Notes: generated by a model from the sequence alone, not told the origin. A stretch of 64,000 nt of DNA from Trypanosoma brucei (GCA_000002445.1 AE017150.2:960001-1024000), one strand, 5' to 3'. Shown: positions 12,310 to 61,718, counted from the stretch's first letter. Numbers and translations: made by a program.

Positions 12310-14363
12310 ACCGGTATGAACGGTGCCGAGTTTTTCCTGCTCTTCAATGTTATGTGCTGGTTCACGACGTCTGCAACGCCAGTGGCAAGGAAAGTCCACT
12401 AGCCTGATTGCCGCTGTCGTTCTTGCTGGCCTGCCCCAGCGCAAGGGGGAATGCAACGAAATCAGCCGCCTCTACTGTCTTTAACATCCCATTCGCACGC
12501 ACTTTCACGCACCCGAGGTTCCATAACCTTTAAATTGCGTCGCCAGAAACCCTAGGACTGAATATGGGAGAAAAACCGAGCGTGGTACATCTGTGCGTGG
12601 CGTCTGGTTGAAGAAAGCCCATCGCTTCTGTACCTTTTTGAAGCTCGTCTCTGCTATGGTAATATCAAAGGTGGAGATCCCTTGTTCCGCAGCTCTAATG
12701 GAAGGTAAGAAAAGCCTTATACACACATCTTTGCCGCAGCTGCGTCATCTTCCTCCAACAGCCCAACAAGTGATGTGGAGTTGTGACCCGCCGGCCGTTG
12801 GAGCAGATGGACCTCATCCAAGACACATTGATCAAGCACCTCGCTTTATTGCAGGTTTTCATCAAGCCTGTGATATCTTCCAAATACCACTAGCACAGTT
12901 ACGAATGTTTTTCTGGCCAACGTCGGGCCCTCAACCGTTTCGGCTCTGATGATCGCTAACATGTGTGTCCCATCTCCAAATGCGCTGTCCACGCCCCTCA
13001 CCTCCACCTTAATATTTGGCGCATGCGCCTTTACCTCCTAAGAGCCGCGCAGTAAACAATCGACAACTGAGCCAGTCATCGCCTCTTGGACCCCAAGAAA
13101 TTGAAAGGGATTGTGCTCCAGAGGACGTGCCAAAGGACGGGAGGAGCTCACGACTGGGGCTGCACGTATTGTTTGTTTGGTGCAGACAGTCCAACATCGG
13201 GAGAAAAAAAACAGCACCGACATTCCTTGACCAGGCCCCTTGTTTTTCCCGGCCTCCCGCTTCAAACCGACATGCATGAACGGACTTGTCGCGCAAACTA
13301 TGTATCTAACAGTTCCATCTACAAGCGCCCTACTGCTGAAACAGTCCAAAACTAGCTCTCAAGCGTCGAGCATTGAAGTGACGCTGCAGTCACTCGCACC
13401 AAGGAACAACACAAAAAAGCAATCGTACTACGCGCGAAGCTGAAGTTCGGGCAGTATATTCGTCAATTTGAACCACAGATGGGACGGCTATCTTCGAGAT
13501 AAAAGGGCTACAAACCAAGTGTGGAATACCTTCGCAAAGAAAACTATAGTCCAACCCGTGGGTGGCGGCACAAAAGAGTCAATAAAAATAGCCTTACAGA
13601 TAGCGGGTTCATTCGACAAGCCCCCAAAGAATAGCACGCTACAATCTATCCACCACGTCGGACTAAGAACCTTCGTTGGGAACGAATTTATGAGCGTTGT
13701 GTCATTTTTCCAAATGGTACCGTTCAAAAAAAAAACTGCATTCCAAGTTGATTTTTTTTACAAAGTTGCTTATGCGCATGTAACCAACGGAACCCACACC
13801 TTGCCTTCGTGAGCCTGCCAGCTTTGACAGGACCTTGTCTACCGTTAAGATGAGGAAAGGGAAGAGAGTCGCGAGGTCACATTACAGGAGCTCCAGTATA
13901 CGCTAGCATCGGCTCAATCCCAGCGAGTCTGACATGGTCGAATAAAACACTGCATTTTTTCCCAAACACGCGAATGACGGTACCCCACGCGTGGGTTATG
14001 ATTGGGACAAACAACAAATTGAAAGATGTACCGGCACAATTGAGCCTCATCAGGCAGAGAGGAGAAACAAAAATAAAAAAAATAGATTAATTAATGGAAT
14101 AACGATGAAGGGCTTTAGCGCCCACAATGGTGCCAGCCATCTGACTGCAGCAGCTACTATGAGTCCTTGTGCATAAAGGAATGACTGTGAAGAAAGTTTG
14201 TACAAAATAAAATATCCTCTTCCATCCCCAAGCACTGGACGATTGGACCCTCCATTATAGGCAAATACAAAACAAAACAAAGTCCTACGGGGAAGGGCAG
14301 TTAACATACTCAAGCATGAACTAAAAATAGAACAGAATATAGCAAACCCAGCTTTGCAAGGTA

Positions 14364-14383
14364 ATATATATATATATATATAT
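14364..14383. repeat. (AT)10 microsatellite, with a mirrored copy at 60329-60348
   Basis: Direct reading. Confidence 0.8.
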
Positions 14384-14912
14384 GAGGAAGACGACATTTC
14401 GTTCATTCGTTTCGGCACCACACGGGTCTACACACAGATCCCCCGTGGGTGCTGTTGTGAGGACCGCAGCGAGGGCCTGAGCGCCGCGAACGGTAGTTTG
14501 GTATTCGGTATACACCCATAAACCCCTTTGAAAACATAAATAATGCCTACCGACCCTGGAATTTGGACCTTCGTTTTCATTCTTTCTTGTTTGCGTGCGC
14601 TACCTCCTTATACGGCAAGCGCGCAAAAGTTATCAACACCCAAGAAAATGGGACTCGCGTGCACAGCGCAGTTGGTCACGACAGCACCGAAATAGTTCCT
14701 ACTGTGGACACTGGTTTGCGTCACCAGAAAGTTCAAAGATTGTGGTGAATCTAACTCTCGCGACTCCTACGATTTCGCCTCCGCGCGTGCACACTAGTTC
14801 GCTTTGCTTAATGCAGCAACGAACGAACACATACGCACATCCACCTACTAACACTTGTTTGGGCCTCAACCCTGTTCTCATTTGCCGCCTATGAATGCGG
14901 GTGGAGTGAAAC

Positions 14913-17207
14913 TTAAACAATGAGGTATCCCTTGGGCGCTGTGGTAATCGGATTAGCCAGCATCTCCTCCGCATCCCTTACTATCGACTCCATACGGCTT
15001 ACCAGTCTCGCCGTGGGCTCCTTCCCGGTGCTGTCCATATCCTTCATCTTCTCCTGCTGTCTGTTTATCTCCTTTTTCGCTGATTCCACACACCGAAGCA
15101 CACTACCGATCCGCGGTGGAGTGTTTTTCACTTCCCGCATCCTGCGTTCGACGTCGAGACTGTCGCTAGCGCCCGTGTCACATTGAGAGAGAATCAGGGT
15201 GGAAACTGTAACACTGCCGCCACCGATCGCGTATCGGAACAGCCGGTGTGGCTCGGACGTGTCCTTCTCCTTCAACGCGGCAAACCGCGAGACCTCTTCC
15301 TTAGCGAGCCCAATGCATAACGAAGAGAGGTATACATCCCCACCGTTGGCAGTTTTCTTCAGTTGTTTCAGGACGAAAAAACCGACGATGAGGTGCTTTG
15401 GATTATCAACGAGTTGCATAGCACTGTTAAACACCTCCATACACTCCTTAGAGGAGGTTGCCTTCTTCGTTTTCATCCCAAGCAAACACGGCCCGTACAC
15501 GGGATTGGATGCAAGCTGCACCCTTTCGTAGCCTTTCTTCTCAGTGTCGAGGAGATCAAGAATGCGGTCAGAGGATTCCATCATACCCAGCGTTATAGTT
15601 ACGTCGAAATACTTGCACTTCTCCTTGGCGCCTTCCACACTCTCAAGGCACCTTTGGAGAAAATCACCCGCAAAAGTCACCGATGTATCTCCACAGTTCC
15701 TCCCAGCCCCCACAAGCAGTGCAGAGGTACGGCCAGCTATCCAGTTCAGTCGGAGGTCGTTGAGTAACACAGAGTTCACATATGCCGACGCCTCGCTACG
15801 CTCAAGGCACTCATCGTTAACATGCTCCTCTTCTCCCCCATCGCTCCGTCTGAAGACCACCGTCCGAGGGTCCTTCACAGTCACAACTACCTTATCTGAG
15901 GGTCCCTCATCCTTATCGAGAATGACGAGCGAGTGAATGTTGTAGTTTTCGAGTACAAGGGTCTGTGCACTCGAGTCATCACCGGCAGGGGAACACTCAC
16001 TCTGGGAAGCAAGGGATCTCCCAGGGGAAGCCAGCACAGGTTTCAGCTCATCCGCAGACCGGCCCTCACCACCACATTTGGCCGCCCCGACGGCTACAAC
16101 ATTCCCACCACGCAGTCCACTTCTCTGCAGCGGCACGTGGTCCTTGATGGTTGCGATGACGGGGCACAAACTGGTCCTCAATGGTGATGGCACACGACCC
16201 ACTCCGTTGCCATATATGCTCCCCATCTGTGAGATACCATTACGGTTCCCATAAGAAGAATCATGCACCGCTGAGCCACATACTCCCGTGTCTGAGGTTC
16301 CGGGAACAAAGCAACGAAAACTGAGGGCGTAACCACATCCACCATAGATACTTTCTCCCGCGGCGGATGCATGCAGGTCACCGAGCTCCCTTTGGCTATG
16401 GAATGACCCTTGCTGCTGGAATGAGTTCCTCCGTTGAGGCAAGTGCCCAGCAAGCCTCCCTGGCAACGACGGAAAAGCATGACCCTCCCCATACACTGAG
16501 TAAGGGAGGGGGTTGGACACGTCACCCAGAGCAGGTCCGTGCACACTTTCACACACTGCCCCCTCATGTGCGCTCGTTCCCGTGGTATGTTGACGCACGC
16601 GTCCGCCACGCGCAAACCCGTCGAGAGCGTATCCACACACACTCCGTGCCCCACAACCAGTGGCGACAATCCCTCTGCCCCCGGAGGGAAACTGCCCTTG
16701 AAACAAACTCGGCGGCGGCGGAACAGCTGGGGGGTAGCCGGCCATCCTCCCCTGCAGCGGTGGGAAGACACAGCCTCCATTTCTTGCTGATGGATAAAAT
16801 GCGTTAGATGCAGACCCCGTCGGCGCGACACCATACGTATACCCGCCCATTGTCCCCCAATAGGCACCCCCTCCTGCGGCAGGCTCCTGCATGTTTCCCA
16901 TGACTCCCTGTCCCTGGAACAACCCCTGTCTTTGAGGTGGTACGGTGTTGCGGCTGCCCAATTGACCATTCGGTGGTGAGATCGGGATCACCTGACCCAA
17001 GCCGCTCGTGGGGGCTGGTGGTCGAGTGGCGGATGGTTGGGAGGTCTGAGCAGTGTCAACGGTTACAAGGTTCTGTGTGTGTGTAGTTCCTTCGCTCGCG
17101 CCACCACGTTTTTCCTCATTCTCTCCCATCTTCGACTTCGGTGCTGAACTTCTGCACTGAAGGATCGATCCTGTTGGTGCGGCGGCGGCTGCCTTTACCG
17201 TGGACAT
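14913..17207 (-). CDS. Pseudo-kinesin family protein, paralog 2 (764 aa, left-arm copy). It has a Gly/Tyr/Pro-rich N-terminal half and one degenerate kinesin-motor-like domain.
   Basis: ATG start confirmed (complement of 17205-17207). A purine-rich plus-strand stretch at 17305-17355 is the polypyrimidine tract on the coding strand. Motor-like blocks: KYFDVTITLGMMESSDRILDLLD (like YFEIY..IRDLL), VYLSSLCIGLAKEE (like LVDLAGSE), RLFRYAIGGGSVTVSTLILSQ (like LQDSLGGNsKT) and REVKNTPPRIGS (like RAKxIKNkPxvNe). The P-loop is replaced by GRTSALLVGAGRNCGDT. Confidence 0.8.
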   Translation of the reverse strand: MSTVKAAAAAPTGSILQCRSSAPKSKMGENEEKRGGASEGTTHTQNLVTVDTAQTSQPSATRPPAPTSGLGQVIPISPPNGQLGSRNTVPPQRQGLFQGQGVMGNMQEPAAGGGAYWGTMGGYTYGVAPTGSASNAFYPSARNGGCVFPPLQGRMAGYPPAVPPPPSLFQGQFPSGGRGIVATGCGARSVCGYALDGFARGGRVRQHTTGTSAHEGAVCESVHGPALGDVSNPLPYSVYGEGHAFPSLPGRLAGHLPQRRNSFQQQGSFHSQRELGDLHASAAGESIYGGCGYALSFRCFVPGTSDTGVCGSAVHDSSYGNRNGISQMGSIYGNGVGRVPSPLRTSLCPVIATIKDHVPLQRSGLRGGNVVAVGAAKCGGEGRSADELKPVLASPGRSLASQSECSPAGDDSSAQTLVLENYNIHSLVILDKDEGPSDKVVVTVKDPRTVVFRRSDGGEEEHVNDECLERSEASAYVNSVLLNDLRLNWIAGRTSALLVGAGRNCGDTSVTFAGDFLQRCLESVEGAKEKCKYFDVTITLGMMESSDRILDLLDTEKKGYERVQLASNPVYGPCLLGMKTKKATSSKECMEVFNSAMQLVDNPKHLIVGFFVLKQLKKTANGGDVYLSSLCIGLAKEEVSRFAALKEKDTSEPHRLFRYAIGGGSVTVSTLILSQCDTGASDSLDVERRMREVKNTPPRIGSVLRCVESAKKEINRQQEKMKDMDSTGKEPTARLVSRMESIVRDAEEMLANPITTAPKGYLIV

Positions 17208-18049
17208 TACAAATGCTTATCAGCACGTGGCCAAACCTGGGTGGCTTACACAACTTCCTCGTGTCACACGGAAATTTGCCTTACAATCTCACTCCTTGTT
17301 TGTACGGAGTAAACCAAAATATGGAAGAGGGAAGAGAAAAAAATCGCAAAAATCCTTTCATATCTGTGTGATTCAGTGGCAAGCCCATCATTGATAACCA
17401 CAGTACGCACAACCATAGCGGAAGGTAACGACAAACCATTTCACTACGCACAGCGGGGTAACGAGTGGGCCGTGGAGTTTAACACAGTGCCGCTGTCCAC
17501 GGCCACACAACCGTGATGGCATCACAGCCCTACAAACGGTATGATGACCATGAACATTCTAATCACACAAGGCCAGTAGAAGGAGGGGATAGGGCAACTC
17601 GCTGCGTAGTGACGGGACCTGTTGTACAGCCCGTAGGTTGCAACAAGTCGAGCAGCGGACGCTGTTACGTTGAAATGCGCCCCAACCAGTGATACTGGGT
17701 TGAATTGTTGTTTCAGTGTATCACACAAAGCAAGCACTTCCGGTCCACCCCGATGGTGTATAATGAGACGCTTGTTTGACTTCCCTAACCATAACGATAC
17801 TATGAGAGAAGGTACCGGGAAAAGAGATCAACAGGAAGCGATAAAGTTGAGCAGCACATGAAAACAATGCCCGACGGTCAGTGAGCACGCAACTGGGAGA
17901 GTAAAGTTTACCACCACACGCTCGGTAGCGTTTTAACCCTAAAAATACGCTGAATAAAAAAGGGAAGTAAAACGGGACAACTCGAATCAAAGAAACCAAT
18001 ACATGGGAATACGCACGTACAATGGGGAAGAAAAGAGGGGGAGAATAAA

Positions 18050-18073
18050 TAATAATAATAATAATAATAATAA
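18050..18073. repeat. (TAA)8 microsatellite. The mirrored copy at 56627-56662 is (TTA)12, an arm length polymorphism.
   Basis: The ORF-track poly-N runs have 9 versus 13 residues. This accounts for the 12 bp offset in outer-arm coordinate sums (74712 versus 74700). Confidence 0.85.
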
Positions 18074-18940
18074 CAAAGTATTGATAGAAATAGCAAATGG
18101 AAAGGGTTCCGAAAGAAAGGCAGTAGACATCACTAGGTGGACGGCACTAACATCTGGAGCAATGGTCAATCCACTTAATTCCCTAACTATGGGCAGCTGG
18201 CTGTATAGTGATTGGTTCAGAGGATTCGCTTCCACTCGACTCAAACACCTCTTGATATAGCTGCGAAGCTCACCATAAGCAACGTAGTTGCAACAGGCTG
18301 CAGTCATTTCACAATAAATAAATAAATAATCACAAGAAGGCACAATTAATAGCACAAACCACCGTCCTCCCTGGTAATGTTAATAAAGGAAGAGACGTAT
18401 AAAAGGGTTATGTACAAACGCGATGAGAATTTTGGGTCGAAGGAAATCAATATGCGAAGGGTATGGCGCTACATACAGGAGAACGCCCCCATAGGCAGTA
18501 CTTGGTGGCACTCGTTGTATGTTTGAAAGTGCAGAAGAAACACAACAAGGGAGCGGTGTGTAGGGTAATAGATATGCCAGGAAACACCAGGGTGTTTGGC
18601 ACCACAGTACAGCAACCCCCCCCCCCTCCCCAACTACCACCCGTTCATGTCAATCACTGTACGTTACTAGCCCATCATTCGCATGTATAACTTCCTGCTG
18701 CAGGAATTCACCTTCTTTTGCACTACTGTTAACTGGTTGTGAGCACACCTCTAAACTAGCCACAGGGTCCGTCGACAACTCCCCAACGGTCCTACCGAGA
18801 CGAGTACACACGCAAACACGGACGCATATGACCTATCGCTTACCTCAGAGCCTCTGTACGTGCAACGGTCGTTGTGCCCTTCCTATACTTCAAACCTCCT
18901 GGGGAGGCGGTCTGGAAAATAGCCGTCATTCACTACTTAC

Positions 18941-19585
18941 TTATGGCTTCCCATCGGTCGCGAAGGCCCGCCCAGTGCCATATAACTCTGTGTCCGTCTG
19001 CCGCAGCACGCACACATCTTCGGGCCTTTCTTCTCCCAGGCACACCATGTCCATTGGGTGCCACGGCTCGACTGGGACGCAGCACACCTCGACGTCGCCC
19101 CACACCCCACCTTCCTCCATTACCCGCTGACGGCGACTAGCCAGTGATCCGTAGTTGGTTCGCTCGCGCATTGGACCATTGGGCCGTTGCCGCAGTGGTT
19201 TATTTCCCAATACCCTTCGGCCTTCTTGACCGCGCAGGCCACAACTGAGCACCTTCTCGTCTCGGTTTGCCATGTCACCGTAATACTCACACAGAACGTC
19301 ACGGTCAGGATCATCTGTTCCCAGAAGGCAGCCCGACCCGGATAGCCCGACTCCGGTGCCTTGGCCACTCTCACGTCTTAAGGAGCTGCGGTGAATCATC
19401 AGGTCTTCCCACTCTTCCTCCGTCTGGGGTCCGCAGAACGACCTCCGGCGAGGGCCTATCCAACCCGCTGTCGAGATATCTTCAAACGTTCCGGGCTCCA
19501 TGGGCATTTCCACCCCCGTCGGAGGCATCACTGCCCAGTTGGAGGGTTCCATTGGGAGCACCAGCGGCTGAGAGTGCGGAAGCAT
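18941..19585 (-). CDS. Hypothetical protein of about 214 aa from the first ATG (left-arm copy; ORF-track entry starts at GTG)
   Basis: Sits between two minus-strand genes with spacing typical of such a cluster. Non-repetitive acidic/Pro-rich sequence. An overlapping plus-strand ORF of 140 aa was rejected on strand-consistency grounds. Confidence 0.35.
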   Translation of the reverse strand: MLPHSQPLVLPMEPSNWAVMPPTGVEMPMEPGTFEDISTAGWIGPRRRSFCGPQTEEEWEDLMIHRSSLRRESGQGTGVGLSGSGCLLGTDDPDRDVLCEYYGDMANRDEKVLSCGLRGQEGRRVLGNKPLRQRPNGPMRERTNYGSLASRRQRVMEEGGVWGDVEVCCVPVEPWHPMDMVCLGEERPEDVCVLRQTDTELYGTGRAFATDGKP

Positions 19586-34193: not shown

Positions 34194-34693
34194 GTACGCT
34201 TGAAGATGGGGGAGGGGGGAAAGTGAACCTTGATACCTCACCCGTCACAGTTGGCTTCCTACACCAGCTCCTTCCTATATGTAGCGTGGAATACCCTTCA
34301 GCAGAGAGTGCAAGGATGCAGTGAAGTGGCGTAAAGAAGTAAGCAACACAGAAATATGAAGACAGAAACGGACGTGGCTCCATAATATTGCTACCTGAAG
34401 TTGCCGAGCATTGCTGACTATTAAAAAAAAAAAAAAACAGCGCCAGCACACTCGTATTGCCTTTATGCAGGACAATGGAGCCACGTGCGAATAGTGGGTT
34501 GTGAATGCAATGAAAAAGACATATATGTTTATAAACCAACAAAGATACATGCGCTTCTTGGTGGACGCAGACAGTCTTGTCAGCCCTGCCCACTCCCAAA
34601 CTACACTTCTATATAGTGCGAAGAAGGCATAACGCATCCAACAATAATCTGGACGTGCACAGTGAGGAGAGGAAGTTCTTACAAGGAAAAATA

Positions 34694-34694
<1 letters not shown>

Positions 34695-34729: not shown

Positions 34730-34734
<5 letters not shown>

Positions 34735-39972: not shown

Positions 39973-40004
<32 letters not shown>

Positions 40005-40261
40005 CTATTTTTCCTTGTAAGAACTTCCTCTCCTCACTGTGCACGTCCAGATTATTGTTGGATGCGTTATGCCTTCTTCGCACTATATAGAAGTGTAGTT
40101 TGGGAGTGGGCAGGGCTGACAAGACTGTCTGCGTCCACCAAGAAGCGCATGTATCTTTGTTGGTTTATAAACATATATGTCTTTTTCATTGCATTCACAA
40201 CCCACTATTCGCACGTGGCTCCATTGTCCTGCATAAAGGCAATACGAGTGTGCTGGCGCTG

Positions 40262-40282
40262 TTTTTTTTTTTTTTTAATAGT
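40262..40282 (+). promoter_or_regulatory. Candidate polypyrimidine tract (T15) plus first downstream AG, a trans-splice acceptor-type signal upstream of paralog 4 (right copy). A second tract is at 40474-40499. The mirror in the left arm is A15 at 34423-34437.
   Basis: gttttttttttttttttaatAGtcagc about 225 nt upstream of the ATG at 40506. A second tract, ttcactttcccccctcccccatcttcaAG, lies immediately upstream of the ATG. Confidence 0.5.
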
Positions 40283-40505
40283 CAGCAATGCTCGGCAACT
40301 TCAGGTAGCAATATTATGGAGCCACGTCCGTTTCTGTCTTCATATTTCTGTGTTGCTTACTTCTTTACGCCACTTCACTGCATCCTTGCACTCTCTGCTG
40401 AAGGGTATTCCACGCTACATATAGGAAGGAGCTGGTGTAGGAAGCCAACTGTGACGGGTGAGGTATCAAGGTTCACTTTCCCCCCTCCCCCATCTTCAAG
40501 CGTAC

Positions 40506-48401: not shown

Positions 48402-48460
48402 GCCTCTGTTTCCCTCCCCCTCTCCTATTTCTACGTTTCTCAAAAGCTGTCTTTGGTTTC
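48402..48460 (+). promoter_or_regulatory. Candidate polypyrimidine tract plus AG acceptor cluster upstream of paralog 3 (right copy). The mirror is at about 26240-26298 on the minus strand.
   Basis: cctctgtttccctccccctctcctatttctacgtttctcaaaAGctgtctttggtttcAG, followed by the ATG at 48515. Confidence 0.5.
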
Positions 48461-48514
48461 AGAAAGAGGAGCGAAAGCAAGGGAAGTCAAGCAAGTAAGT
48501 TTTGTAACCGTAAA

Positions 48515-53083: not shown

Positions 53084-55114
53084 TCTTCATGCGTGTGGGT
53101 TAGGAAGCATATTATCATTGTACACGACTGGACACGCTTTTCTGGGGGTGGCATCCGTTGACCCAGCAGAAAAAGTGGTGTCTGTCAATTGCATCGTTAG
53201 AAAGTATGTTTGTACTTGCGCTATTATTATTATTATTATTTTGTGATTAGTACTAATTATCCTGAAGTGTGTAAAGAAAGGCTATTAAATTTCAGAGGAC
53301 ACCAATTCTCGATACTGTGCAGAAGTGCGAGTCGTGCTGAAATCTGCACTTGTTGGTGTGACGAAAGTAGTGGTGCCTGTTGAGCGGCGTTACACTCCGT
53401 TCAGACGCATCGCCAACCTACTTTTTCCTTTCTGTTCGTCACGTATGTTTTTCCACCTTTCCTTTTTCTTTGCACGTGGGGGGAGCGGATTAAACACGTG
53501 TCAATATTAAAATAACTCCATGAATGAAGCGGTGAGGTTGGGGGTTGTATCCGTGCGTCTGTGAGGGGTGTAATCAAAAGTGTCACAAGACTCTTTTCCC
53601 ACTGGTCTACTGCATTTGGCAGAATAATTCTTGTTTCTAACAAAGTAGGCAGATGCGATCAAAGATCAGCCCTCTGTCCGCTTTAGTTATTTGTTACTTT
53701 TTCTCTTTGTGTTTCATTTATCGCTTTGTTATTTTTATTCTCCTGCGGAGGCTCCTCCTCATGTGTCACGTCACATTGATTCTTTTCGTGAGGGTCGAAG
53801 CGGACGCGGCAGGCAGGTTGGGCGCAAGCCCCTCATCCTTTCGTCTGAGCAGCACCATGCGACTGTTTAATATGAAACAGTAAGTGATGAAAACGACGAA
53901 GAAGTTCCACCGAGTATGACAATTGTAGCAGCAGTCCTTCCCAATACCGAGTTTTATTTTTCACGGAATTTCGCGTCCGTTGTTTTACCAGTTATTTTAT
54001 TATTCCTCCCTCTGCTGTACTGTACATTCCCTGCTGTTTTTTTTTCCTTACTTCATTATCCTCTTTCTTTTTGCCCTGCAATATGTGTAGACAGTGGGTC
54101 TGCCGTCGGCATGCTGATGAGAGACCCGCTCTGCACTCGTATTATTTGTTTATTTTTTCGTTGGGAGTTACACAATTATCCTCAGTGTGTTGTTTTTGAT
54201 TATTTGTTTTTACATCCCCGTGGTAGTGTTGGTGATCCATTGGGGTGCATCCTGCACGCCTGACGGATGTGTATGTTTTCCACTCCATTACGCGCCCTTC
54301 GCTTCGAAGCTGGGCAAAGTGACTATGTTTCCCTCTTCCTTCCTCTACCACTCCTTCACCACGGCAGTCCCGCAGCTGCAATTCAAAGGCTCACGCTAGT
54401 CGATTACAGATCAGAGGACGCTCCGTAATGCTTCTTATGCAAAACTGAGTCCTTCGCAGGTCAACACCTGGCTGACTTGCAAATGCGATGTTTTGCTGGT
54501 GTGCAGTTGCATCTGCGCTAGTCACCGTGTTATCCCTGTGCCCAAACTGCGTGTGTGAACGGTAAAGAATCATGTTGGCAGGGAAACAAACATAGTAGTG
54601 CAGGGGCAGTGCGGTCCGAGGGATGTGTGAGTACTTGTTAATCTGTCCTCGCTCCCACAACTGTATAAATGTTCCTTCTTATCCGTCGAAGAGGTGTGTG
54701 GATAAGCGATTAGGGGGGGGGTGTGGAAGGAAATGTTTATGTTAAGTGGTACTTTCTCATCTTGGGCATCGTCTGCCTGTCGTTCCTCCCTTCCTATAAA
54801 CCCCCTCCGCCTGCTCGTAGTTGATATTGTGTACCTCTTACATGAGCATTGTTATCATGTGTTGCCCGTCGTCTCATCCCTGTTTTATGCTAGTTAGGTT
54901 GCTAACCTGAGGAAAGCACTGTTGTTACACCGCCGCCACCACCACTGCATACATTCAGGGAGCCTACATTAGAGGCGAACCTGCGCGTAGTAAGAGCGGA
55001 AAGCGAGTGGTCAAACAAGTGAAGATAATATACCTGACTGAAAGGCACTGTAACTGCAGAAGTTGGAAAAAGGGGCGGGACTGTGCGCAACAACAGCACC
55101 GTACGTGTGCTCCG

Positions 55115-55759
55115 ATGCTTCCGCACTCTCAGCCGCTGGTGCTCCCAATGGAACCCTCCAACTGGGCAGTGATGCCTCCGACGGGGGTGGAAATGCCCAT
55201 GGAGCCCGGAACGTTTGAAGATATCTCGACAGCGGGTTGGATAGGCCCTCGCCGGAGGTCGTTCTGCGGACCCCAGACGGAGGAAGAGTGGGAAGACCTG
55301 ATGATTCACCGCAGCTCCTTAAGACGTGAGAGTGGCCAAGGCACCGGAGTCGGGCTATCCGGGTCGGGCTGCCTTCTGGGAACAGATGATCCTGACCGTG
55401 ACGTTCTGTGTGAGTATTACGGTGACATGGCAAACCGAGACGAGAAGGTGCTCAGTTGTGGCCTGCGCGGTCAAGAAGGCCGAAGGGTATTGGGAAATAA
55501 ACCACTGCGGCAACGGCCCAATGGTCCAATGCGCGAGCGAACCAACTACGGATCACTGGCTAGTCGCCGTCAGCGGGTAATGGAGGAAGGTGGGGTGTGG
55601 GGCGACGTCGAGGTGTGCTGCGTCCCAGTCGAGCCGTGGCACCCAATGGACATGGTGTGCCTGGGAGAAGAAAGGCCCGAAGATGTGTGCGTGCTGCGGC
55701 AGACGGACACAGAGTTATATGGCACTGGGCGGGCCTTCGCGACCGATGGGAAGCCATAA
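55115..55759 (+). CDS. Hypothetical protein of about 214 aa (right-arm copy)
   Basis: Mirror of 18941..19585. The ATG at 55115 was checked. Confidence 0.35.
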   Translation: MLPHSQPLVLPMEPSNWAVMPPTGVEMPMEPGTFEDISTAGWIGPRRRSFCGPQTEEEWEDLMIHRSSLRRESGQGTGVGLSGSGCLLGTDDPDRDVLCEYYGDMANRDEKVLSCGLRGQEGRRVLGNKPLRQRPNGPMRERTNYGSLASRRQRVMEEGGVWGDVEVCCVPVEPWHPMDMVCLGEERPEDVCVLRQTDTELYGTGRAFATDGKP

Positions 55760-56622
55760 GTAAGTAGTGAATGACGGCTATTTTCCAGACCGCCTCCCCA
55801 GGAGGTTTGAAGTATAGGAAGGGCACAACGACCGTTGCACGTACAGAGGCTCTGAGGTAAGCGATAGGTCATATGCGTCCGTGTTTGCGTGTGTACTCGT
55901 CTCGGTAGGACCGTTGGGGAGTTGTCGACGGACCCTGTGGCTAGTTTAGAGGTGTGCTCACAACCAGTTAACAGTAGTGCAAAAGAAGGTGAATTCCTGC
56001 AGCAGGAAGTTATACATGCGAATGATGGGCTAGTAACGTACAGTGATTGACATGAACGGGTGGTAGTTGGGGAGGGGGGGGGGGTTGCTGTACTGTGGTG
56101 CCAAACACCCTGGTGTTTCCTGGCATATCTATTACCCTACACACCGCTCCCTTGTTGTGTTTCTTCTGCACTTTCAAACATACAACGAGTGCCACCAAGT
56201 ACTGCCTATGGGGGCGTTCTCCTGTATGTAGCGCCATACCCTTCGCATATTGATTTCCTTCGACCCAAAATTCTCATCGCGTTTGTACATAACCCTTTTA
56301 TACGTCTCTTCCTTTATTAACATTACCAGGGAGGACGGTGGTTTGTGCTATTAATTGTGCCTTCTTGTGATTATTTATTTATTTATTGTGAAATGACTGC
56401 AGCCTGTTGCAACTACGTTGCTTATGGTGAGCTTCGCAGCTATATCAAGAGGTGTTTGAGTCGAGTGGAAGCGAATCCTCTGAACCAATCACTATACAGC
56501 CAGCTGCCCATAGTTAGGGAATTAAGTGGATTGACCATTGCTCCAGATGTTAGTGCCGTCCACCTAGTGATGTCTACTGCCTTTCTTTCGGAACCCTTTC
56601 CATTTGCTATTTCTATCAATAC

Positions 56623-56664
<42 letters not shown>

Positions 56665-57356
56665 TATTCTCCCCCTCTTTTCTTCCCCATTGTACGTGCG
56701 TATTCCCATGTATTGGTTTCTTTGATTCGAGTTGTCCCGTTTTACTTCCCTTTTTTATTCAGCGTATTTTTAGGGTTAAAACGCTACCGAGCGTGTGGTG
56801 GTAAACTTTACTCTCCCAGTTGCGTGCTCACTGACCGTCGGGCATTGTTTTCATGTGCTGCTCAACTTTATCGCTTCCTGTTGATCTCTTTTCCCGGTAC
56901 CTTCTCTCATAGTATCGTTATGGTTAGGGAAGTCAAACAAGCGTCTCATTATACACCATCGGGGTGGACCGGAAGTGCTTGCTTTGTGTGATACACTGAA
57001 ACAACAATTCAACCCAGTATCACTGGTTGGGGCGCATTTCAACGTAACAGCGTCCGCTGCTCGACTTGTTGCAACCTACGGGCTGTACAACAGGTCCCGT
57101 CACTACGCAGCGAGTTGCCCTATCCCCTCCTTCTACTGGTCTTGTGTGATTAGAATGTTCATGGTCATCATACCGTTTGTAGGGCTGTGATGCCATCACG
57201 GTTGTGTGGCCGTGGACAGCGGCACTGTGTTAAACTCCACGGCCCACTCGTTACCCCGCTGTGCGTAGTGAAATGGTTTGTCGTTACCTTCCGCTATGGT
57301 TGTGCGTACTGTGGTTATCAATGATGGGCTTGCCACTGAATCACACAGATATGAAA

Positions 57357-57407
57357 GGATTTTTGCGATTTTTTTCTCTTCCCTCTTCCATATTTTGGTT
57401 TACTCCG
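57357..57407 (+). promoter_or_regulatory. Candidate polypyrimidine tract upstream of paralog 2 (right copy). The mirror is at 17305-17355 on the minus strand.
   Basis: gatttttttctcttccctcttccatattttggtttactcc about 100 nt upstream of the ATG at 57505. Confidence 0.45.
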
Positions 57408-57504
57408 TACAAACAAGGAGTGAGATTGTAAGGCAAATTTCCGTGTGACACGAGGAAGTTGTGTAAGCCACCCAGGTTTGGCCACGTGCTGATAAGCATT
57501 TGTA

Positions 57505-59799
57505 ATGTCCACGGTACAGGCAGCCGCCGCCGCACCAACAGGATCGATCCTTCAGTGCAGAAGTTCAGCACCGAAGTCGAAGATGGGAGAGAATGAGGAA
57601 AAACGTGGTGGCGCGAGCGAAGGAACTACACACACACAGAACCTTGTAACCGTTGACACTGCTCAGACCTCCCAACCATCCGCCACTCGACCACCAGCCC
57701 CCACGAGCGGCTTGGGTCAGGTGATCCCGATCTCACCACCGAATGGTCAATTGGGCAGCCGCAACACCGTACCACCTCAAAGACAGGGGTTGTTCCAGGG
57801 ACAGGGAGTCATGGGAAACATGCAGGAGCCTGCCGCAGGAGGGGGTGCCTATTGGGGGACAATGGGCGGGTATACGTATGGTGTCGCGCCGACGGGGTCT
57901 GCATCTAACGCATTTTATCCATCAGCAAGAAATGGAGGCTGTGTCTTCCCACCGCTGCAGGGGAGGATGGCCGGCTACCCCCCAGCTGTTCCGCCGCCGC
58001 CGAGTTTGTTTCAAGGGCAGTTTCCCTCCGGGGGCAGAGGGATTGTCGCCACTGGTTGTGGGGCACGGAGTGTGTGTGGATACGCTCTCGACGGGTTTGC
58101 GCGTGGCGGACGCGTGCGTCAACATACCACGGGAACGAGCGCACATGAGGGGGCAGTGTGTGAAAGTGTGCACGGACCTGCTCTGGGTGACGTGTCCAAC
58201 CCCCTCCCTTACTCAGTGTATGGGGAGGGTCATGCTTTTCCGTCGTTGCCAGGGAGGCTTGCTGGGCACTTGCCTCAACGGAGGAACTCATTCCAGCAGC
58301 AAGGGTCATTCCATAGCCAAAGGGAGCTCGGTGACCTGCATGCATCCGCCGCGGGAGAAAGTATCTATGGTGGATGTGGTTACGCCCTCAGTTTTCGTTG
58401 CTTTGTTCCCGGAACCTCAGACACGGGAGTATGTGGCTCAGCGGTGCATGATTCTTCTTATGGGAACCGTAATGGTATCTCACAGATGGGGAGCATATAT
58501 GGCAACGGAGTGGGTCGTGTGCCATCACCATTGAGGACCAGTTTGTGCCCCGTCATCGCAACCATCAAGGACCACGTGCCGCTGCAGAGAAGTGGACTGC
58601 GTGGTGGGAATGTTGTAGCCGTCGGGGCGGCCAAATGTGGTGGTGAGGGCCGGTCTGCGGATGAGCTGAAACCTGTGCTGGCTTCCCCTGGGAGATCCCT
58701 TGCTTCCCAGAGTGAGTGTTCCCCTGCCGGTGATGACTCGAGTGCACAGACCCTTGTACTCGAAAACTACAACATTCACTCGCTCGTCATTCTCGATAAG
58801 GATGAGGGACCCTCAGATAAGGTAGTTGTGACTGTGAAGGACCCTCGGACGGTGGTCTTCAGACGGAGCGATGGGGGAGAAGAGGAGCATGTTAACGATG
58901 AGTGCCTTGAGCGTAGCGAGGCGTCGGCATATGTGAACTCTGTGTTACTCAACGACCTCCGACTGAACTGGATAGCTGGCCGTACCTCTGCACTGCTTGT
59001 GGGGGCTGGGAGGAACTGTGGAGATACATCGGTGACTTTTGCGGGTGATTTTCTCCAAAGGTGCCTTGAGAGTGTGGAAGGCGCCAAGGAGAAGTGCAAG
59101 TATTTCGACGTAACTATAACGCTGGGTATGATGGAATCCTCTGACCGCATTCTTGATCTCCTCGACACTGAGAAGAAAGGCTACGAAAGGGTGCAGCTTG
59201 CATCCAATCCCGTGTACGGGCCGTGTTTGCTTGGGATGAAAACGAAGAAGGCAACCTCCTCTAAGGAGTGTATGGAGGTGTTTAACAGTGCTATGCAACT
59301 CGTTGATAATCCAAAGCACCTCATCGTCGGTTTTTTCGTCCTGAAACAACTGAAGAAAACTGCCAACGGTGGGGATGTATACCTCTCTTCGTTATGCATT
59401 GGGCTCGCTAAGGAAGAGGTCTCGCGGTTTGCCGCGTTGAAGGAGAAGGACACGTCCGAGCCACACCGGCTGTTCCGATACGCGATCGGTGGCGGCAGTG
59501 TTACAGTTTCCACCCTGATTCTCTCTCAATGTGACACGGGCGCTAGCGACAGTCTCGACGTCGAACGCAGGATGCGGGAAGTGAAAAACACTCCACCGCG
59601 GATCGGTAGTGTGCTTCGGTGTGTGGAATCAGCGAAAAAGGAGATAAACAGACAGCAGGAGAAGATGAAGGATATGGACAGCACCGGGAAGGAGCCCACG
59701 GCGAGACTGGTAAGCCGTATGGAGTCGATAGTAAGGGATGCGGAGGAGATGCTGGCTAATCCGATTACCACAGCGCCCAAGGGATACCTCATTGTTTAA
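57505..59799 (+). CDS. Pseudo-kinesin family protein, paralog 2 (764 aa, right-arm copy)
   Basis: Mirror of 14913..17207. The one visible amino-acid difference is K5 versus Q5. Confidence 0.8.
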   Translation: MSTVQAAAAAPTGSILQCRSSAPKSKMGENEEKRGGASEGTTHTQNLVTVDTAQTSQPSATRPPAPTSGLGQVIPISPPNGQLGSRNTVPPQRQGLFQGQGVMGNMQEPAAGGGAYWGTMGGYTYGVAPTGSASNAFYPSARNGGCVFPPLQGRMAGYPPAVPPPPSLFQGQFPSGGRGIVATGCGARSVCGYALDGFARGGRVRQHTTGTSAHEGAVCESVHGPALGDVSNPLPYSVYGEGHAFPSLPGRLAGHLPQRRNSFQQQGSFHSQRELGDLHASAAGESIYGGCGYALSFRCFVPGTSDTGVCGSAVHDSSYGNRNGISQMGSIYGNGVGRVPSPLRTSLCPVIATIKDHVPLQRSGLRGGNVVAVGAAKCGGEGRSADELKPVLASPGRSLASQSECSPAGDDSSAQTLVLENYNIHSLVILDKDEGPSDKVVVTVKDPRTVVFRRSDGGEEEHVNDECLERSEASAYVNSVLLNDLRLNWIAGRTSALLVGAGRNCGDTSVTFAGDFLQRCLESVEGAKEKCKYFDVTITLGMMESSDRILDLLDTEKKGYERVQLASNPVYGPCLLGMKTKKATSSKECMEVFNSAMQLVDNPKHLIVGFFVLKQLKKTANGGDVYLSSLCIGLAKEEVSRFAALKEKDTSEPHRLFRYAIGGGSVTVSTLILSQCDTGASDSLDVERRMREVKNTPPRIGSVLRCVESAKKEINRQQEKMKDMDSTGKEPTARLVSRMESIVRDAEEMLANPITTAPKGYLIV

Positions 59800-61718
59800 G
59801 TTTCACTCCACCCGCATTCATAGGCGGCAAATGAGAACAGGGTTGAGGCCCAAACAAGTGTTAGTAGGTGGATGTGCGTATGTGTTCGTTCGTTGCTGCA
59901 TTAAGCAAAGCGAACTAGTGTGCACGCGCGGAGGCGAAATCGTAGGAGTCGCGAGAGTTAGATTCACCACAATCTTTGAACTTTCTGGTGACGCAAACCA
60001 GTGTCCACAGTAGGAACTATTTCGGTGCTGTCGTGACCAACTGCGCTGTGCACGCGAGTCCCATTTTCTTGGGTGTTGATAACTTTTGCGCGCTTGCCGT
60101 ATAAGGAGGTAGCGCACGCAAACAAGAAAGAATGAAAACGAAGGTCCAAATTCCAGGGTCGGTAGGCATTATTTATGTTTTCAAAGGGGTTTATGGGTGT
60201 ATACCGAATACCAAACTACCGTTCGCGGCGCTCAGGCCCTCGCTGCGGTCCTCACAACAGCACCCACGGGGGATCTGTGTGTAGACCCGTGTGGTGCCGA
60301 AACGAATGAACGAAATGTCGTCTTCCTCATATATATATATATATATATTACCTTGCAAAGCTGGGTTTGCTATATTCTGTTCTATTTTTAGTTCATGCTT
60401 GAGTATGTTAACTGCCCTTCCCCGTAGGACTTTGTTTTGTTTTGTATTTGCCTATAATGGAGGGTCCAATCGTCCAGTGCTTGGGGATGGAAGAGGATAT
60501 TTTATTTTGTACAAACTTTCTTCACAGTCATTCCTTTATGCACAAGGACTCATAGTAGCTGCTGCAGTCAGATGGCTGGCACCATTGTGGGCGCTAAAGC
60601 CCTTCATCGTTATTCCATTAATTAATCTATTTTTTTTATTTTTGTTTCTCCTCTCTGCCTGATGAGGCTCAATTGTGCCGGTACATCTTTCAATTTGTTG
60701 TTTGTCCCAATCATAACCCACGCGTGGGGTACCGTCATTCGCGTGTTTGGGAAAAAATGCAGTGTTTTATTCGACCATGTCAGACTCGCTGGGATTGAGC
60801 CGATGCTAGCGTATACTGGAGCTCCTGTAATGTGACCTCGCGACTCTCTTCCCTTTCCTCATCTTAACGGTAGACAAGGTCCTGTCAAAGCTGGCAGGCT
60901 CACGAAGGCAAGGTGTGGGTTCCGTTGGTTACATGCGCATAAGCAACTTTGTAAATTTTGTATTTTTTGCAGTGCGCTTGTGTGCGAAGCTTTCACATGT
61001 ATGTACGTTTAGTCACTTCTTCGTCGGTTTGCACTAGGTAGTAATTGGTGCAGATCTCTAGCTTTGCTGGGTGTGGAGGTGTTTCTACGAAAGGAATGTG
61101 TTAAAACAATTTTACAATTAATTTCTCCTTTGTTATTTAAAGGAAAGGAACTACTCTATTTTTCACGTGCAGATGCAGTGATCACAATCGAAATGTAATG
61201 TTGTAGGGGGAAAGGAGGGGCTTCCTTCAAAAAGTGAGCAATCGGGGTGTTGGTCTTGTCATCACTTGAATGAAGATTGGCCGCTGTCCTTATTTATTGT
61301 CGGTAACGAGGAGATTGTGTGGCACCCTTTTTTGCAACATATATTTACGTATTTGAGCTGTTTCTAGTGGCGTATGAGCGAGGTGAGTAAGAGTTTTCCT
61401 GAACGGGAGATACGGGAATGGAAATTGTGAGGTTGATGCTTGTTATCTTCTGTCCTCGTAGTTGTTCGCAATTGGTTCTCTTTAAGGCGGTAACTGTGTA
61501 TGTGTCCGTTTGTTTGTCTGACGTCTTTCTGACTCTTCCACTGCCGTAGGAAAGGAACGGGAAATATATACTTTAGTAAATAGATATCACTCTTTAACCG
61601 GTAAGGCGTCGGCTGTATCACTGTACGTCCCCAAAGGCACAGTTACTGGGGAAGGAAATAAGCACCACTCTTGAGAGGAAGAGGCCCATCAACAGCAAAT
61701 ATTTGTGGTACTGCGACC

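What the first reader, a model, noticed from the sequence alone, without database searches (positions are those of the whole stretch)
13752..60952. A 47 kb near-perfect palindrome (two 23.5 kb inverted arms, 135 bp spacer) carries duplicated gene sets at the head of two divergent gene clusters
Every base of 13752-37286 reappears reverse-complemented at 37422-60952. The three giant ORFs, the small ORF between them, and all intergenic microsatellites are mirrored. The arms are about 99.9% identical, with differences I can see directly. One group is amino-acid-level substitutions in overlapping-frame ORF translations: for example K/Q at residue 5 of the 764-aa protein; G/D, Q/P and S/P in the 2076-aa protein; V/A plus G/R in the 20437/53916 ORF pair; A/T in 21190/53325. 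The other group is microsatellite length changes: (TAA)8 versus (TTA)12, (TA)17 versus (AT)13, C10 versus G9, and A11(CA)7 versus T10(GT)8. Both outer flanks are unique sequence: the Cys-rich ORF and paralog 1 on the left, adenylate kinase on the right. The repeat is therefore embedded, not at a sequence end. The unique 135 bp spacer, flanked by arms that begin with a short local hairpin motif (cctcgtagaacgagg), is the classic footprint of palindrome formation by hairpin-primed replication at a short inverted repeat. This is known from gene-amplification palindromes in Leishmania and yeast. If real, it places two copies of an entire gene set symmetrically around a transcription start region, with implications for dosage, gene conversion and chromosome stability. 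If it is an assembly artefact, it needs flagging.
Basis: seen in the sequence. Interest (0 to 1): 0.9.

Follow-up and report, generated by a model that had tools for sequence, protein, structure and literature searches.

The report
Conserved 47 kb trypanosome chromosomal palindrome
Trypanosoma brucei chromosome 2 carries a real 47 kb mirror-image duplication of four genes, three of them from an insect-adhesion-related family. It is shared by several subspecies, and its two halves are kept almost identical by ongoing copying between them, as in the large palindromes of human sex chromosomes.

Summary
Arms 13757-37286 and 37422-60955 are reverse complements around a unique 135-nt spacer. They differ by 12 substitutions and 5 indels, four of them in simple repeats. 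The window is T. b. brucei TREU927 chromosome 2.

It is not an assembly artefact. The same centre and the same two outer junctions, to the base, occur in T. b. gambiense DAL972 and T. b. equiperdum IVM-t1. T. equiperdum OVI shows the centre and the left junction.

New result: the arms evolve in concert. Between TREU927 and IVM-t1, 104 substitutions are strain-specific and present on both arms. None inside the arms is arm-specific and shared between strains. One arm-specific site 25 nt from the outer edge is shared by gambiense and equiperdum. So the palindrome predates the subspecies and is homogenised by arm-to-arm gene conversion.

Each arm carries three ARND/KIAP4-family genes plus a 214-aa gene. 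The arms head two mirror-image gene clusters that diverge from a 6.3 kb non-coding centre. In T. vivax and T. theileri the innermost gene has same-strand upstream neighbours, so this divergent centre looks derived.

This is a new member of a known kind; interest is moderate.

The parts
13757..37286 (.). Left arm of the palindrome (23,530 nt); all genes on the - strand
37287..37421 (.). Unique asymmetric 135-nt spacer at the centre. It has no tRNA or Rfam match and is 99-100% conserved in DAL972, IVM-t1 and OVI. Its orientation relative to the flanks differs between assemblies.
37422..60955 (.). Right arm of the palindrome (23,534 nt); all genes on the + strand
34242..40457 (.). 6.3 kb non-coding centre (3.05 kb of each arm plus the spacer). 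It forms a divergent strand-switch region between the two 2060/2076-aa genes, and the GC skew changes sign here.
28011..34241 (-). Left copy of the 2076-aa ORF (annotated as 2060 aa, start 34193). ARND-family protein with three NTPase-like domains and a weak Pfam Kinesin hit.
40458..46688 (+). Right copy of the 2076-aa ORF; differs from the left copy by G232D, Q351P, S549P and one synonymous site
21617..26308 (-). Left copy of the 1563-aa ORF. ARND-family, three domain copies, with an internal coding tandem-repeat block at 25131-25693.
48392..53083 (+). Right copy of the 1563-aa ORF (two synonymous differences from the left copy)
18941..19693 (-). Left copy of a small conserved gene (250-aa ORF, annotated as 214 aa in other genomes). 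No Pfam family; an ortholog sits in the same position in T. congolense.
55007..55759 (+). Right copy of the small 214/250-aa gene
14913..17207 (-). Left copy of the 764-aa gene (XP_951711); ARND-family, one C-terminal domain
57505..59799 (+). Right copy of the 764-aa gene (XP_951718); K5Q relative to the left copy
8688..11597 (-). Unique left flank: 969-aa ARND-family paralog, outside the palindrome and continuing the leftward gene cluster
2670..6590 (-). Unique left flank: ABC transporter
61671..62501 (+). Unique right flank: adenylate kinase (260 aa from 61719). Taken to be ADKA, Tb927.2.5660, from the gene numbering.
18048..18073 (.). (AAT)n microsatellite, 12 nt shorter than its mirror at 56627-56664. 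One of four simple-repeat length differences; the others are at 27266, 34695-34729 versus 39978-40004, and 34758.

Best explanation
This is a genuine, evolutionarily maintained chromosomal palindrome on Trypanosoma brucei chromosome 2.

Shown:
- An ancestral inverted duplication of a 23.5 kb, four-gene segment is present in T. b. brucei, T. b. gambiense and T. b. equiperdum. The segment holds three ARND/KIAP4-family NTPase-like genes plus a 214-aa gene. The spacer and outer breakpoints are identical in all three.
- Within each genome the arms are about 12-fold more alike (0.03-0.05% substitutions) than the same arm is between strains (about 0.6%).
- Strain-specific substitutions sit on both arms.

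Inferred:
- The arms are continually homogenised by intrachromosomal arm-to-arm gene conversion. This is homologous recombination between the two arms of one chromatid or of sister chromatids.
- Occasional crossovers would flip the spacer.
- Conversion is weaker at the outer edge.

Consequence:
- Shown: the four genes are present at double dose, and the two copies head mirror-image gene clusters that diverge from a 6.3 kb non-coding centre.
- Inferred from trypanosome gene organisation: these are RNA polymerase II polycistronic units and the centre is their start region.
- Inferred from outgroups: the orthologous innermost gene has same-strand upstream neighbours in T. vivax and T. theileri, so this divergent strand-switch region was probably created by the duplication itself.

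Origin (inferred, weak): a replication or repair template switch, either a fold-back at the inner junction or a two-step switch, in the Trypanozoon ancestor or earlier.
For: Palindrome anatomy.

Identity of the window: the 764-aa protein is 100% identical to TREU927 XP_951711 and XP_951718 on a 1,193,948-bp contig.

Independent assemblies:
- IVM-t1 carries both copies of the 764-aa gene in opposite orientation, each running into a different unique flank.
- One gap-free IVM-t1 stretch carries 4 kb of arm, the spacer and 5.4 kb of the other arm.
- The OVI contig ends 32 nt beyond the spacer. This is the pattern expected for collapsed arms.
- DAL972 has the complete left arm plus spacer. It also has, next to adenylate kinase, the outer 1.5 kb of the right arm in inverted orientation, with the rest of that arm replaced by a 100-N gap.

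Concerted evolution:
- Outer 13.5 kb, four-way alignment: 81 substitutions of type TL=TR not equal to EL=ER. The 16 arm-specific shared sites all lie in the 60-nt unique flanks.
- Inner 4 kb: 23 versus 0.
- Six-way alignment of the outer 1.5 kb: 10 sites where the two arms of each lineage agree and the lineages differ, plus one arm-specific site shared by gambiense and equiperdum 25 nt from the edge.
- A gambiense-specific change 4 nt from the spacer is mirrored on both arms.

Gene family:
- The four large proteins are paralogous, with 1-3 copies of a roughly 330-aa domain and weak kinesin P-loop hits.
- Tb927.2.5610 (POMP22B) is a KIAP4/ARND paralog. T. brucei has eight such paralogs, four of them up-regulated on RBP6 overexpression (PMC13416946).
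- Tb927.2.5530 and Tb927.2.5610 appear as the POMP22-1/22B pair (PMC7952579).

Outgroups: in T. vivax, adenylate kinase is followed by the 2076-like and then the 1563-like gene, all on one strand. In T. theileri, same-strand genes lie upstream of the ortholog.
Against: - No raw reads or depth data were available. Copy number and single-molecule continuity across 47 kb were not tested directly.
- The other assemblies are not fully independent. DAL972 and IVM-t1 contigs were ordered against TREU927 (PMC2854126; PMC6395869).
- IVM-t1 had low PacBio coverage and Pilon polishing. That could artificially homogenise its arms.
- The gene-conversion inference therefore rests mainly on two things: the accuracy of the TREU927 arms, and the shared junctions.
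- TREU927 is diploid, so some of the 12 arm differences could be allelic rather than arm-specific.
- Transcription initiation at the centre, dosage effects and any selective value were not tested.
- The mapping of Tb927.2.5530 and Tb927.2.5610 to a particular arm gene is by inference from gene numbering.
Confidence: 0.8

Rival explanations
1. Assembly artefact in the TREU927 reference. Under this reading a single-copy 23.5 kb segment was duplicated in silico by a haplotype join, a chimeric clone or a mis-assembled BAC, and the arm differences are allelic.
For: The arm differences (12 SNPs and microsatellite lengths) are of the size expected for alleles. Long palindromes are hard to clone and assemble. 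DAL972 lacks most of the right arm.
Against: - The outer end of the arm is joined to two different unique flanks, in opposite orientations, in IVM-t1 and DAL972 as well as TREU927.
- The inner end is joined to both ends of the asymmetric spacer in IVM-t1 and OVI.
- Those sequences differ from TREU927 at about 0.6% of sites, so they were not copied from it.
- The DAL972 deficit coincides with a 100-N gap.
Confidence: 0.04
2. The palindrome is real but young, or arose independently in each lineage. Under this reading the arms are similar because there has been little time to diverge, and no gene conversion is needed.
For: Arm identity of 99.95% is what a very recent duplication would show.
Against: - Spacer and both outer breakpoints are identical to the base in three subspecies. 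Independent origin is therefore implausible.
- A single origin before their split predicts arm divergence of at least the between-strain divergence (0.6%). Observed values are 0.03-0.05%, with 104 strain-specific substitutions present on both arms.
- An arm-specific variant is shared by gambiense and equiperdum at the edge.
- Caveat: T. brucei is sexual, so a recent spread of one palindrome haplotype cannot be excluded for any one pair of strains. It would not, however, explain strain-specific changes on both arms.
Confidence: 0.08
3. A stress- or selection-driven gene-amplification palindrome of the Leishmania or yeast type. It would have formed by fold-back at a short inverted repeat, be peculiar to cultured laboratory stocks and be potentially unstable.
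For: A short spacer (135 nt) and head-to-head arrangement are typical products of fold-back priming. Trypanosomatids are known to form inverted amplicons (PMC4028189 and PMC4256157, listed).
Against: - It is interstitial, with two unique flanks and exactly two copies.
- It is present in field-derived subspecies from different continents and hosts.
- No repeated element lies at the outer boundary.
Confidence: 0.05

Closest known systems
Large ampliconic palindromes of primate X and Y chromosomes (P1-P8 on the human Y; 26 X palindromes, PMC8327919)
   Same: Both have inverted arms tens of kilobases long with over 99.9% identity around a unique spacer. In both, arm-to-arm identity is higher than the divergence between lineages, which means concerted evolution by gene conversion. 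Both structures are conserved across related taxa and carry a multi-copy gene family with stage- or tissue-restricted expression. Spacer inversion polymorphism is expected in both.
   Different: This one is on a diploid, recombining core chromosome of a protist. Its spacer is only 135 bp, against kilobases in primates. Its centre is a divergent start of polycistronic transcription units, so the duplication mirrors whole transcription units rather than isolated genes. Only one such palindrome was examined here.
Leishmania inverted-repeat-mediated linear amplicons and yeast fold-back / ODIRA inverted amplifications (PMC4028189, PMC4256157, PMC10766183)
   Same: These are head-to-head inverted duplications in a trypanosomatid or a microbe, with a short unique centre compatible with a fold-back or template-switch origin.
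   Different: Those are recent, selected and often extrachromosomal, or are triplications. They form at pre-existing dispersed repeats and are unstable without selection. This one is a two-copy interstitial chromosomal structure, shared by subspecies, with no repeat at its outer boundary.
Trypanosoma brucei divergent strand-switch regions (RNA polymerase II transcription start regions)
   Same: Two gene clusters diverge from a multi-kilobase non-coding region, and the GC skew changes sign there.
   Different: Ordinary strand-switch regions separate unrelated gene clusters. Here the two sides are mirror images for 23.5 kb. Chromatin marks and start sites were not examined.
Palindromic 177-bp-repeat cores of T. 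brucei minichromosomes (PMC419779, cited)
   Same: Both are large inverted structures tolerated in the same organism.
   Different: Those are satellite-repeat cores of small chromosomes without genes. This one is unique-sequence, gene-bearing DNA in a megabase chromosome core.

Membership tests
Large chromosomal palindrome maintained by arm-to-arm gene conversion (sex-chromosome type) | Two inverted arms over 8 kb long with over 99% identity | tested here: met
   23.5 kb arms, 99.85% identity including gaps
Large chromosomal palindrome maintained by arm-to-arm gene conversion (sex-chromosome type) | Unique non-duplicated spacer between the arms | tested here: met
   135-nt asymmetric spacer at 37287-37421, conserved in four genomes
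Large chromosomal palindrome maintained by arm-to-arm gene conversion (sex-chromosome type) | Orthologous palindrome with the same boundaries in related lineages | tested here: met
   Same outer breakpoint and spacer in TREU927, DAL972 and IVM-t1; centre and left junction in OVI. T. congolense could not be resolved.
Large chromosomal palindrome maintained by arm-to-arm gene conversion (sex-chromosome type) | Within-genome arm divergence far below between-lineage divergence, with lineage-specific changes on both arms | tested here: met
   104 strain-specific both-arm substitutions against 0 arm-specific shared ones inside the arms. Arm divergence is 0.03-0.05% against 0.6% between strains. Caveat: polishing of the IVM-t1 assembly.
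Large chromosomal palindrome maintained by arm-to-arm gene conversion (sex-chromosome type) | Two copies per haploid genome on single molecules (depth, spanning reads) | not testable with these tools
   No read data were available.
Fold-back / hairpin-primed amplification palindrome (Leishmania, yeast, Tetrahymena type) | Pre-existing short inverted repeat at the arm/spacer border in the unduplicated allele | tested here: inconclusive
No unduplicated allele was found. The DAL972 sequence beyond the spacer looked at first like one. Its identity to the arm decays 18/20, 10/20, 10/20, 5/20 and then to random without indels beside an N gap, so it is probably a poor read tail.
Fold-back / hairpin-primed amplification palindrome (Leishmania, yeast, Tetrahymena type) | Recent, strain- or selection-specific, terminal or extrachromosomal product | tested here: not met
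   Interstitial, with unique flanks on both sides, and shared by subspecies
Divergent strand-switch region / Pol II transcription start region of T. brucei | Head-to-head gene clusters on opposite strands separated by a non-coding region | tested here: met
   All left-arm and left-flank ORFs are on -, and all right-arm and right-flank ORFs on +. The non-coding centre is 6.3 kb.
Divergent strand-switch region / Pol II transcription start region of T. brucei | H2A.Z/H2B.V/H4K10ac enrichment and mapped start sites | not testable with these tools
   No chromatin or transcript-start data were accessible.
ARND (Adhesion Related NTPase-like Domain) / KIAP4 gene family | [quoted passage not shown] | tested here: inconclusive
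   The four large proteins share a roughly 330-aa domain in 1-3 copies. The Pfam Kinesin hit is just above the cut-off in the 2076-aa protein only (31.7 bits against 29.3). No intact Walker A motif was found inside the repeated domains. They were not aligned directly with L. mexicana KIAP4.
ARND (Adhesion Related NTPase-like Domain) / KIAP4 gene family | Listed as a family member in the defining paper | tested here: inconclusive
   PMC13416946 names Tb927.2.5610 (POMP22B) as a KIAP4 paralog and counts eight in T. brucei. Tb927.2.5660 is named ADKA in PMC2645819, and I take the window's adenylate kinase to be that gene. That would place 5610 inside the right arm, but the exact gene was inferred from numbering, not verified. 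Six arm genes, the 969-aa gene and one elsewhere would make eight.

The most novel reading that the evidence does not exclude
The inverted duplication did more than double four genes. It created a new divergent transcription start region de novo, and possibly a replication origin, in the ancestor of Trypanozoon. It did so by placing two copies of a former internal intergenic region head-to-head.

Under this reading the resulting 47 kb palindrome has been kept since then by selection on the dose of tsetse-stage adhesion-family (ARND/KIAP4) genes, together with frequent arm-to-arm gene conversion and spacer flip-flop. That would also mean T. brucei tolerates a long palindrome with only a 135-bp spacer, a structure that is fragile in yeast and mammals.
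Probability: 0.3. Interest if true: 0.65.

Novelty: new member of a known kind. Interest (0 to 1): 0.5.

Why it matters
1. Reference-genome users should treat Tb927.2.55xx-56xx as a true two-copy mirrored region. Short reads, RNAi, CRISPR guides and proteomics cannot tell the copies apart, and six of the eight T. brucei ARND/KIAP4 paralogs appear to lie in it.

2. It is a natural, conserved substrate for studying intrachromosomal gene conversion, palindrome stability and spacer inversion in an organism whose antigenic variation depends on the same recombination machinery.

3. If the centre is an active start region created by the duplication, it shows how new polycistronic transcription units can be born in trypanosomes.

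4. It flags collapsed or gapped assemblies at this locus in DAL972, OVI and IVM-t1.

Tried and rejected
- **RNA gene or tRNA at the centre.** I tested whether one could explain the spacer. Rfam at gathering threshold on the whole window, an E-value search on 34200-40500 and ARAGORN gave nothing credible.
- **DAL972 as a single-copy or pre-duplication allele.** The assembly puts adenylate kinase 5.8 kb from the 2060-aa gene, with 170 nt of novel sequence beyond an 18-nt inverted repeat. I rejected this reading for three reasons. There is a 100-N gap. The outer 1.5 kb of the right arm is present. The 'novel' 170 nt decays from 90% to random identity to the arm without indels, like a poor read tail.
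- **A 2.2 kb tandem duplication in the IVM-t1 right arm.** I rejected it. It straddles a 100-N scaffold gap and is an unmerged contig overlap.
- **Spacer orientation.** It is opposite in IVM-t1 and OVI compared with TREU927 and DAL972. I do not count this as proven flip-flop. Collapsed arms, low long-read coverage and reference-guided scaffolding make the assembled orientation arbitrary.
- **T. congolense.** The adenylate kinase ortholog could not be located on a contig. The 764-aa ortholog lies on a 17 kb contig that shows the same gene order (1563-like, 250-like, 764-like) but ends before any junction.
- **Reconstructing the ancestral arrangement from T. vivax.** Its adenylate kinase segment occurs in two contexts on separate contigs, so no unambiguous path could be derived.
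- **Literature.** No held paper describes the palindrome. The chromosome II paper (El-Sayed et al. 2003) is not held. The T. b. gambiense genome paper does not list it among segmental duplications.
Full report

Yes. An inverted-repeat scan finds four contiguous 100%-complementary blocks that together cover 13757-37286 and 37422-60955. blastn of the left arm against the reverse complement of the right gives a single alignment of 23,547 columns, with 12 mismatches and 5 gap openings (23 gap bases), or 99.85% identity.

Listing every difference gives 12 substitutions. It also gives four length changes in simple repeats:
- (AAT)n at 18048
- the (CA)n/A-run at 27266
- (TA)n at 34695
- the C-run at 34758

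The fifth gap opening is a single gap where the aligner ran 3 nt into the spacer.

The spacer is 37287-37421, 135 nt, and is not itself palindromic. Its list of amino-acid and microsatellite differences is correct: K5Q in the 764-aa ORF and G232D, Q351P and S549P in the 2076-aa ORF. The remaining 8 substitutions are 3 synonymous and 5 intergenic.

The flanks share no DNA similarity with each other or with the arms. Homology ends abruptly after ...AACTTTGTAAA on both sides.

**2. What is the sequence?**

The 764-aa protein is 100% identical to two T. b. brucei TREU927 entries, XP_951711 and XP_951718, on a contig of 1,193,948 bp. From memory this is chromosome 2. That is consistent with the Tb927.2 gene numbers and with the matching DAL972 and IVM-t1 chromosome-level records.

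The eight consecutive protein accessions XP_951711-951718 fit four genes per arm. XP_951714 and XP_951715 are the two 2060-aa proteins.

The right flank encodes an adenylate kinase. Tb927.2.5660 is named ADKA in PMC2645819, and I take this to be that gene from the numbering. The left flank encodes a 969-aa paralog and an ABC transporter.

All left-side ORFs are on the - strand and all right-side ORFs on the + strand. The centre is therefore a divergent strand-switch region, with 3.05 kb of non-coding DNA on each side of the spacer. GC skew changes sign there. No tRNA or Rfam family is present at the centre.

**3. What do the arms carry?**

The 2076-, 1563-, 764- and 969-aa proteins are paralogs built from a roughly 330-aa domain. 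It is present three times in the two large proteins and once in the two smaller ones. The domain has weak similarity to the kinesin P-loop motor. The hit is 31.7 bits against a 29.3 cut-off in the 2076-aa protein and below the cut-off in the 1563-aa protein.

A 2026 paper defines the ARND (Adhesion Related NTPase-like Domain) family, whose founding member KIAP4 is needed for Leishmania attachment in the sand fly. It names Tb927.2.5610 (POMP22B) as a T. brucei paralog and counts eight T. brucei paralogs. It reports four of them up-regulated on RBP6 overexpression, and T. congolense paralogs at the attached epimastigote flagellum (PMC13416946).

Tb927.2.5530 and Tb927.2.5610 are listed as POMP22-1 and POMP22B (PMC7952579). 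With ADKA at 5660 immediately outside the right arm, these numbers fall in the two arms. Six arm genes, the 969-aa gene and one elsewhere would make eight. Which arm gene is 5610 is an inference I could not verify.

The fourth arm gene (214/250 aa) has no family assignment. It is conserved in position in T. congolense.

**4. Artefact or real?**

I recovered the locus from three other Trypanozoon genomes through exact-protein look-ups.

*T. b. equiperdum IVM-t1 (CM010673.1).* It has the 764-aa gene twice, in opposite orientation and 42.5 kb apart after correcting for a contig overlap. One copy continues into the ABC-side flank and the other into the adenylate-kinase flank. A gap-free stretch contains 4 kb of arm, the spacer and 5.4 kb of the opposite arm.

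*T. equiperdum OVI (short-read scaffold CZPT02000137.1).* It runs from the ABC flank through one arm and the spacer, and stops 32 nt into the opposite arm. This is the signature of two collapsed arms.

*T. b. gambiense DAL972.* It has the full left arm and spacer. Next to adenylate kinase it has the outer 1.5 kb of the right arm in inverted orientation, followed by a 100-N gap where the rest of the arm should be.

These sequences differ from TREU927 at about 0.6% of sites, so they are not copies of the reference. In each genome the arm's outer end is attached to two different unique sequences, and its inner end to both ends of an asymmetric spacer. The simplest genome consistent with this is the palindrome.

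Caveats:
- DAL972 and IVM-t1 contigs were ordered against TREU927.
- IVM-t1 had only 7,508 PacBio reads plus MiSeq and Pilon polishing.
- I had no reads or depth data.

**5. Concerted evolution**

This is the main new result. I aligned both arms of TREU927 (T) and IVM-t1 (E).

| Region | Both-arm strain-specific substitutions | Arm-specific shared inside the arm | T-only arm differences | E-only arm differences |
|---|---|---|---|---|
| Outer 13.5 kb | 81 | 0 | 9 | 18 |
| Inner 4 kb | 23 | 0 | 1 | 0 |

In the outer alignment, the 16 sites of the 'left = left, right = right' type all lie in the 60 nt of unique flank beyond the boundary. Ten of the 18 E-only differences cluster in the coding tandem repeat of the 1563-aa gene.

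In the inner alignment, arm-to-arm distances are 0.025% (T) and 0% (E), against 0.58-0.60% between strains.

I then made a six-way alignment of the outer 1.5 kb that includes both gambiense arms.
- It shows the same boundary in all three lineages.
- Ten sites are identical on the two arms of each lineage but differ among lineages.
- One site, 25 nt from the boundary, is T on the left arm and C on the right arm in both gambiense and equiperdum.

A gambiense-specific change 4 nt from the spacer is mirrored on both arms: ACACGG / CCGTGT against ACCCGG / CCGGGT.

The logic is as follows. Identical breakpoints and spacer imply a single origin before these lineages separated. Without exchange, each arm would since have diverged from its partner by at least the between-lineage amount. 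Instead the arms are about 12-fold more similar, and lineage-specific changes are on both arms. Arm-to-arm gene conversion explains this, and the surviving arm-specific site at the extreme edge is what conversion tracts would leave. The argument holds even if polishing partly homogenised the IVM-t1 arms. It needs only the TREU927 arm identity and the shared junctions.

**6. Spacer orientation**

Read towards the ABC flank, the spacer is in one orientation in TREU927 and DAL972 and in the other in IVM-t1 and OVI. Crossing-over between arms would produce exactly this flip-flop. Given collapsed arms and reference-guided scaffolding, however, the assembled orientation may be arbitrary. I report it as a lead only.

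**7. Ancestral state and origin**

In T. vivax the adenylate kinase gene is followed 0.5 kb downstream, on the same strand, by the 2076-like and then the 1563-like gene. In T. theileri the ortholog is preceded by same-strand genes and followed by family members. Neither shows an inverted copy within 10 kb. T. congolense keeps the order 1563-like, 250-like, 764-like, but the contig is too short to say more.

This suggests that the divergent strand-switch region at the T. brucei centre was created by the inverted duplication. Synteny around adenylate kinase differs between species, and T. vivax has its own 5.9 kb duplication of the adenylate kinase segment. I hold this inference at moderate confidence.

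On mechanism of origin, a 135-nt spacer is compatible with a fold-back or template switch at the inner junction.
- The structure is interstitial with a sharp second junction, so at least two switches or a second event are required.
- No unduplicated allele was found.

The one candidate for an unduplicated allele, the DAL972 sequence beyond the spacer, decays from 18/20 to random identity without indels beside an N gap. It is best read as a poor read tail.

**8. Comparison with known systems**

Functionally and evolutionarily, the closest match is the class of large palindromes on primate sex chromosomes. These have long, near-identical arms, a unique spacer, conservation across taxa and arm-to-arm gene conversion (PMC8327919, listed). 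All the sequence-level defining features I could test are met.

It does not fit the Leishmania or yeast amplification-palindrome class, because it is chromosomal, interstitial, two-copy and shared among subspecies.

It is also a divergent strand-switch region by gene orientation. Chromatin marks and start sites were not testable.

I found no held paper that describes the palindrome. The original chromosome II paper is not held, so prior mention there cannot be excluded. The duplicated genes are visible in the public annotation as POMP22-1/22B.

**9. Verdict**

The origin mechanism is unproven, and the amplification analogy is not the best one.

The added value is the evidence for conservation across Trypanozoon and for concerted evolution, and the link to the ARND/KIAP4 adhesion-related family. 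This is a new member of a known kind. Interest is moderate (0.5). It would be higher if the centre proves to be a start region or origin born from the duplication, or if the short-spacer palindrome reveals unusual tolerance of such structures.

Noticed in passing
L004 6510-6781 (= L014 7440-7727), T. b. gambiense DAL972 FN554965.1: The DAL972 reference lacks about 22 kb of the right arm, which is replaced by a 100-N gap. The contig end next to the gap carries about 170 nt whose identity to the expected arm decays from 90% to random without indels. This is probably a low-quality read tail left in the assembly.
   Followed up: yes
L007 9555-9654, T. b. equiperdum IVM-t1 CM010673.1 (about 611.2 kb): A 100-N scaffold gap is flanked by a 2.2 kb unmerged contig overlap (window-equivalent 40628-42851). 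It makes the right-arm 2060-aa gene appear as four fragments of 734, 578, 650 and 274 aa in the annotation.
   Followed up: yes
L010 5128-11072 versus L011/L012 5130-11072 (T. vivax GCA_021307395.1 contigs SOPI01000369, 142 and 148): A 5.9 kb segment holding a 328-aa gene, a CHAP-domain gene and adenylate kinase occurs at 98.8% identity in two different contexts. In one it follows the ABC transporter and is followed by two 764-like genes on the opposite strand. In the other it is followed by the 2076-like and 1563-like genes on the same strand. T. vivax may therefore have its own, possibly inverted, duplication flanking the same gene cluster.
   Followed up: partly
window 25131-25693 and 49043-49491: There is a block of degenerate coding tandem repeats (periods 18, 30, 48, 60, 78 and 96 nt) inside the 1563-aa gene. 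Ten of the 18 differences between the two IVM-t1 arms cluster here, so it may be a hotspot of variation or of assembly error.
   Followed up: partly
window 37287-37421 compared with L007 4001-4135 and L008 33-167: The orientation of the spacer relative to the unique flanks is opposite in the two T. equiperdum assemblies compared with TREU927 and DAL972. This could be true inversion by recombination between the arms, or an arbitrary assembly path.
   Followed up: partly
window 23445-24737 (+), 25108-25734 (+), 16178-16969 (-) and their mirrors: Long ORFs of 208-430 aa lie antisense to, or out of frame with, the large arm genes. They are most likely spurious products of biased composition.
   Followed up: no
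window 8688-11597 (-) and L009, L010, L022: The ARND-family genes form a conserved same-strand cluster in T. theileri, T. vivax and T. congolense (2076-like, 1563-like, small gene, 764-like, 969-like). A whole-library search with the 764-aa protein finds only 71 relatives at an E-value of 0.001 or below, so the family is narrow.
   Followed up: partly
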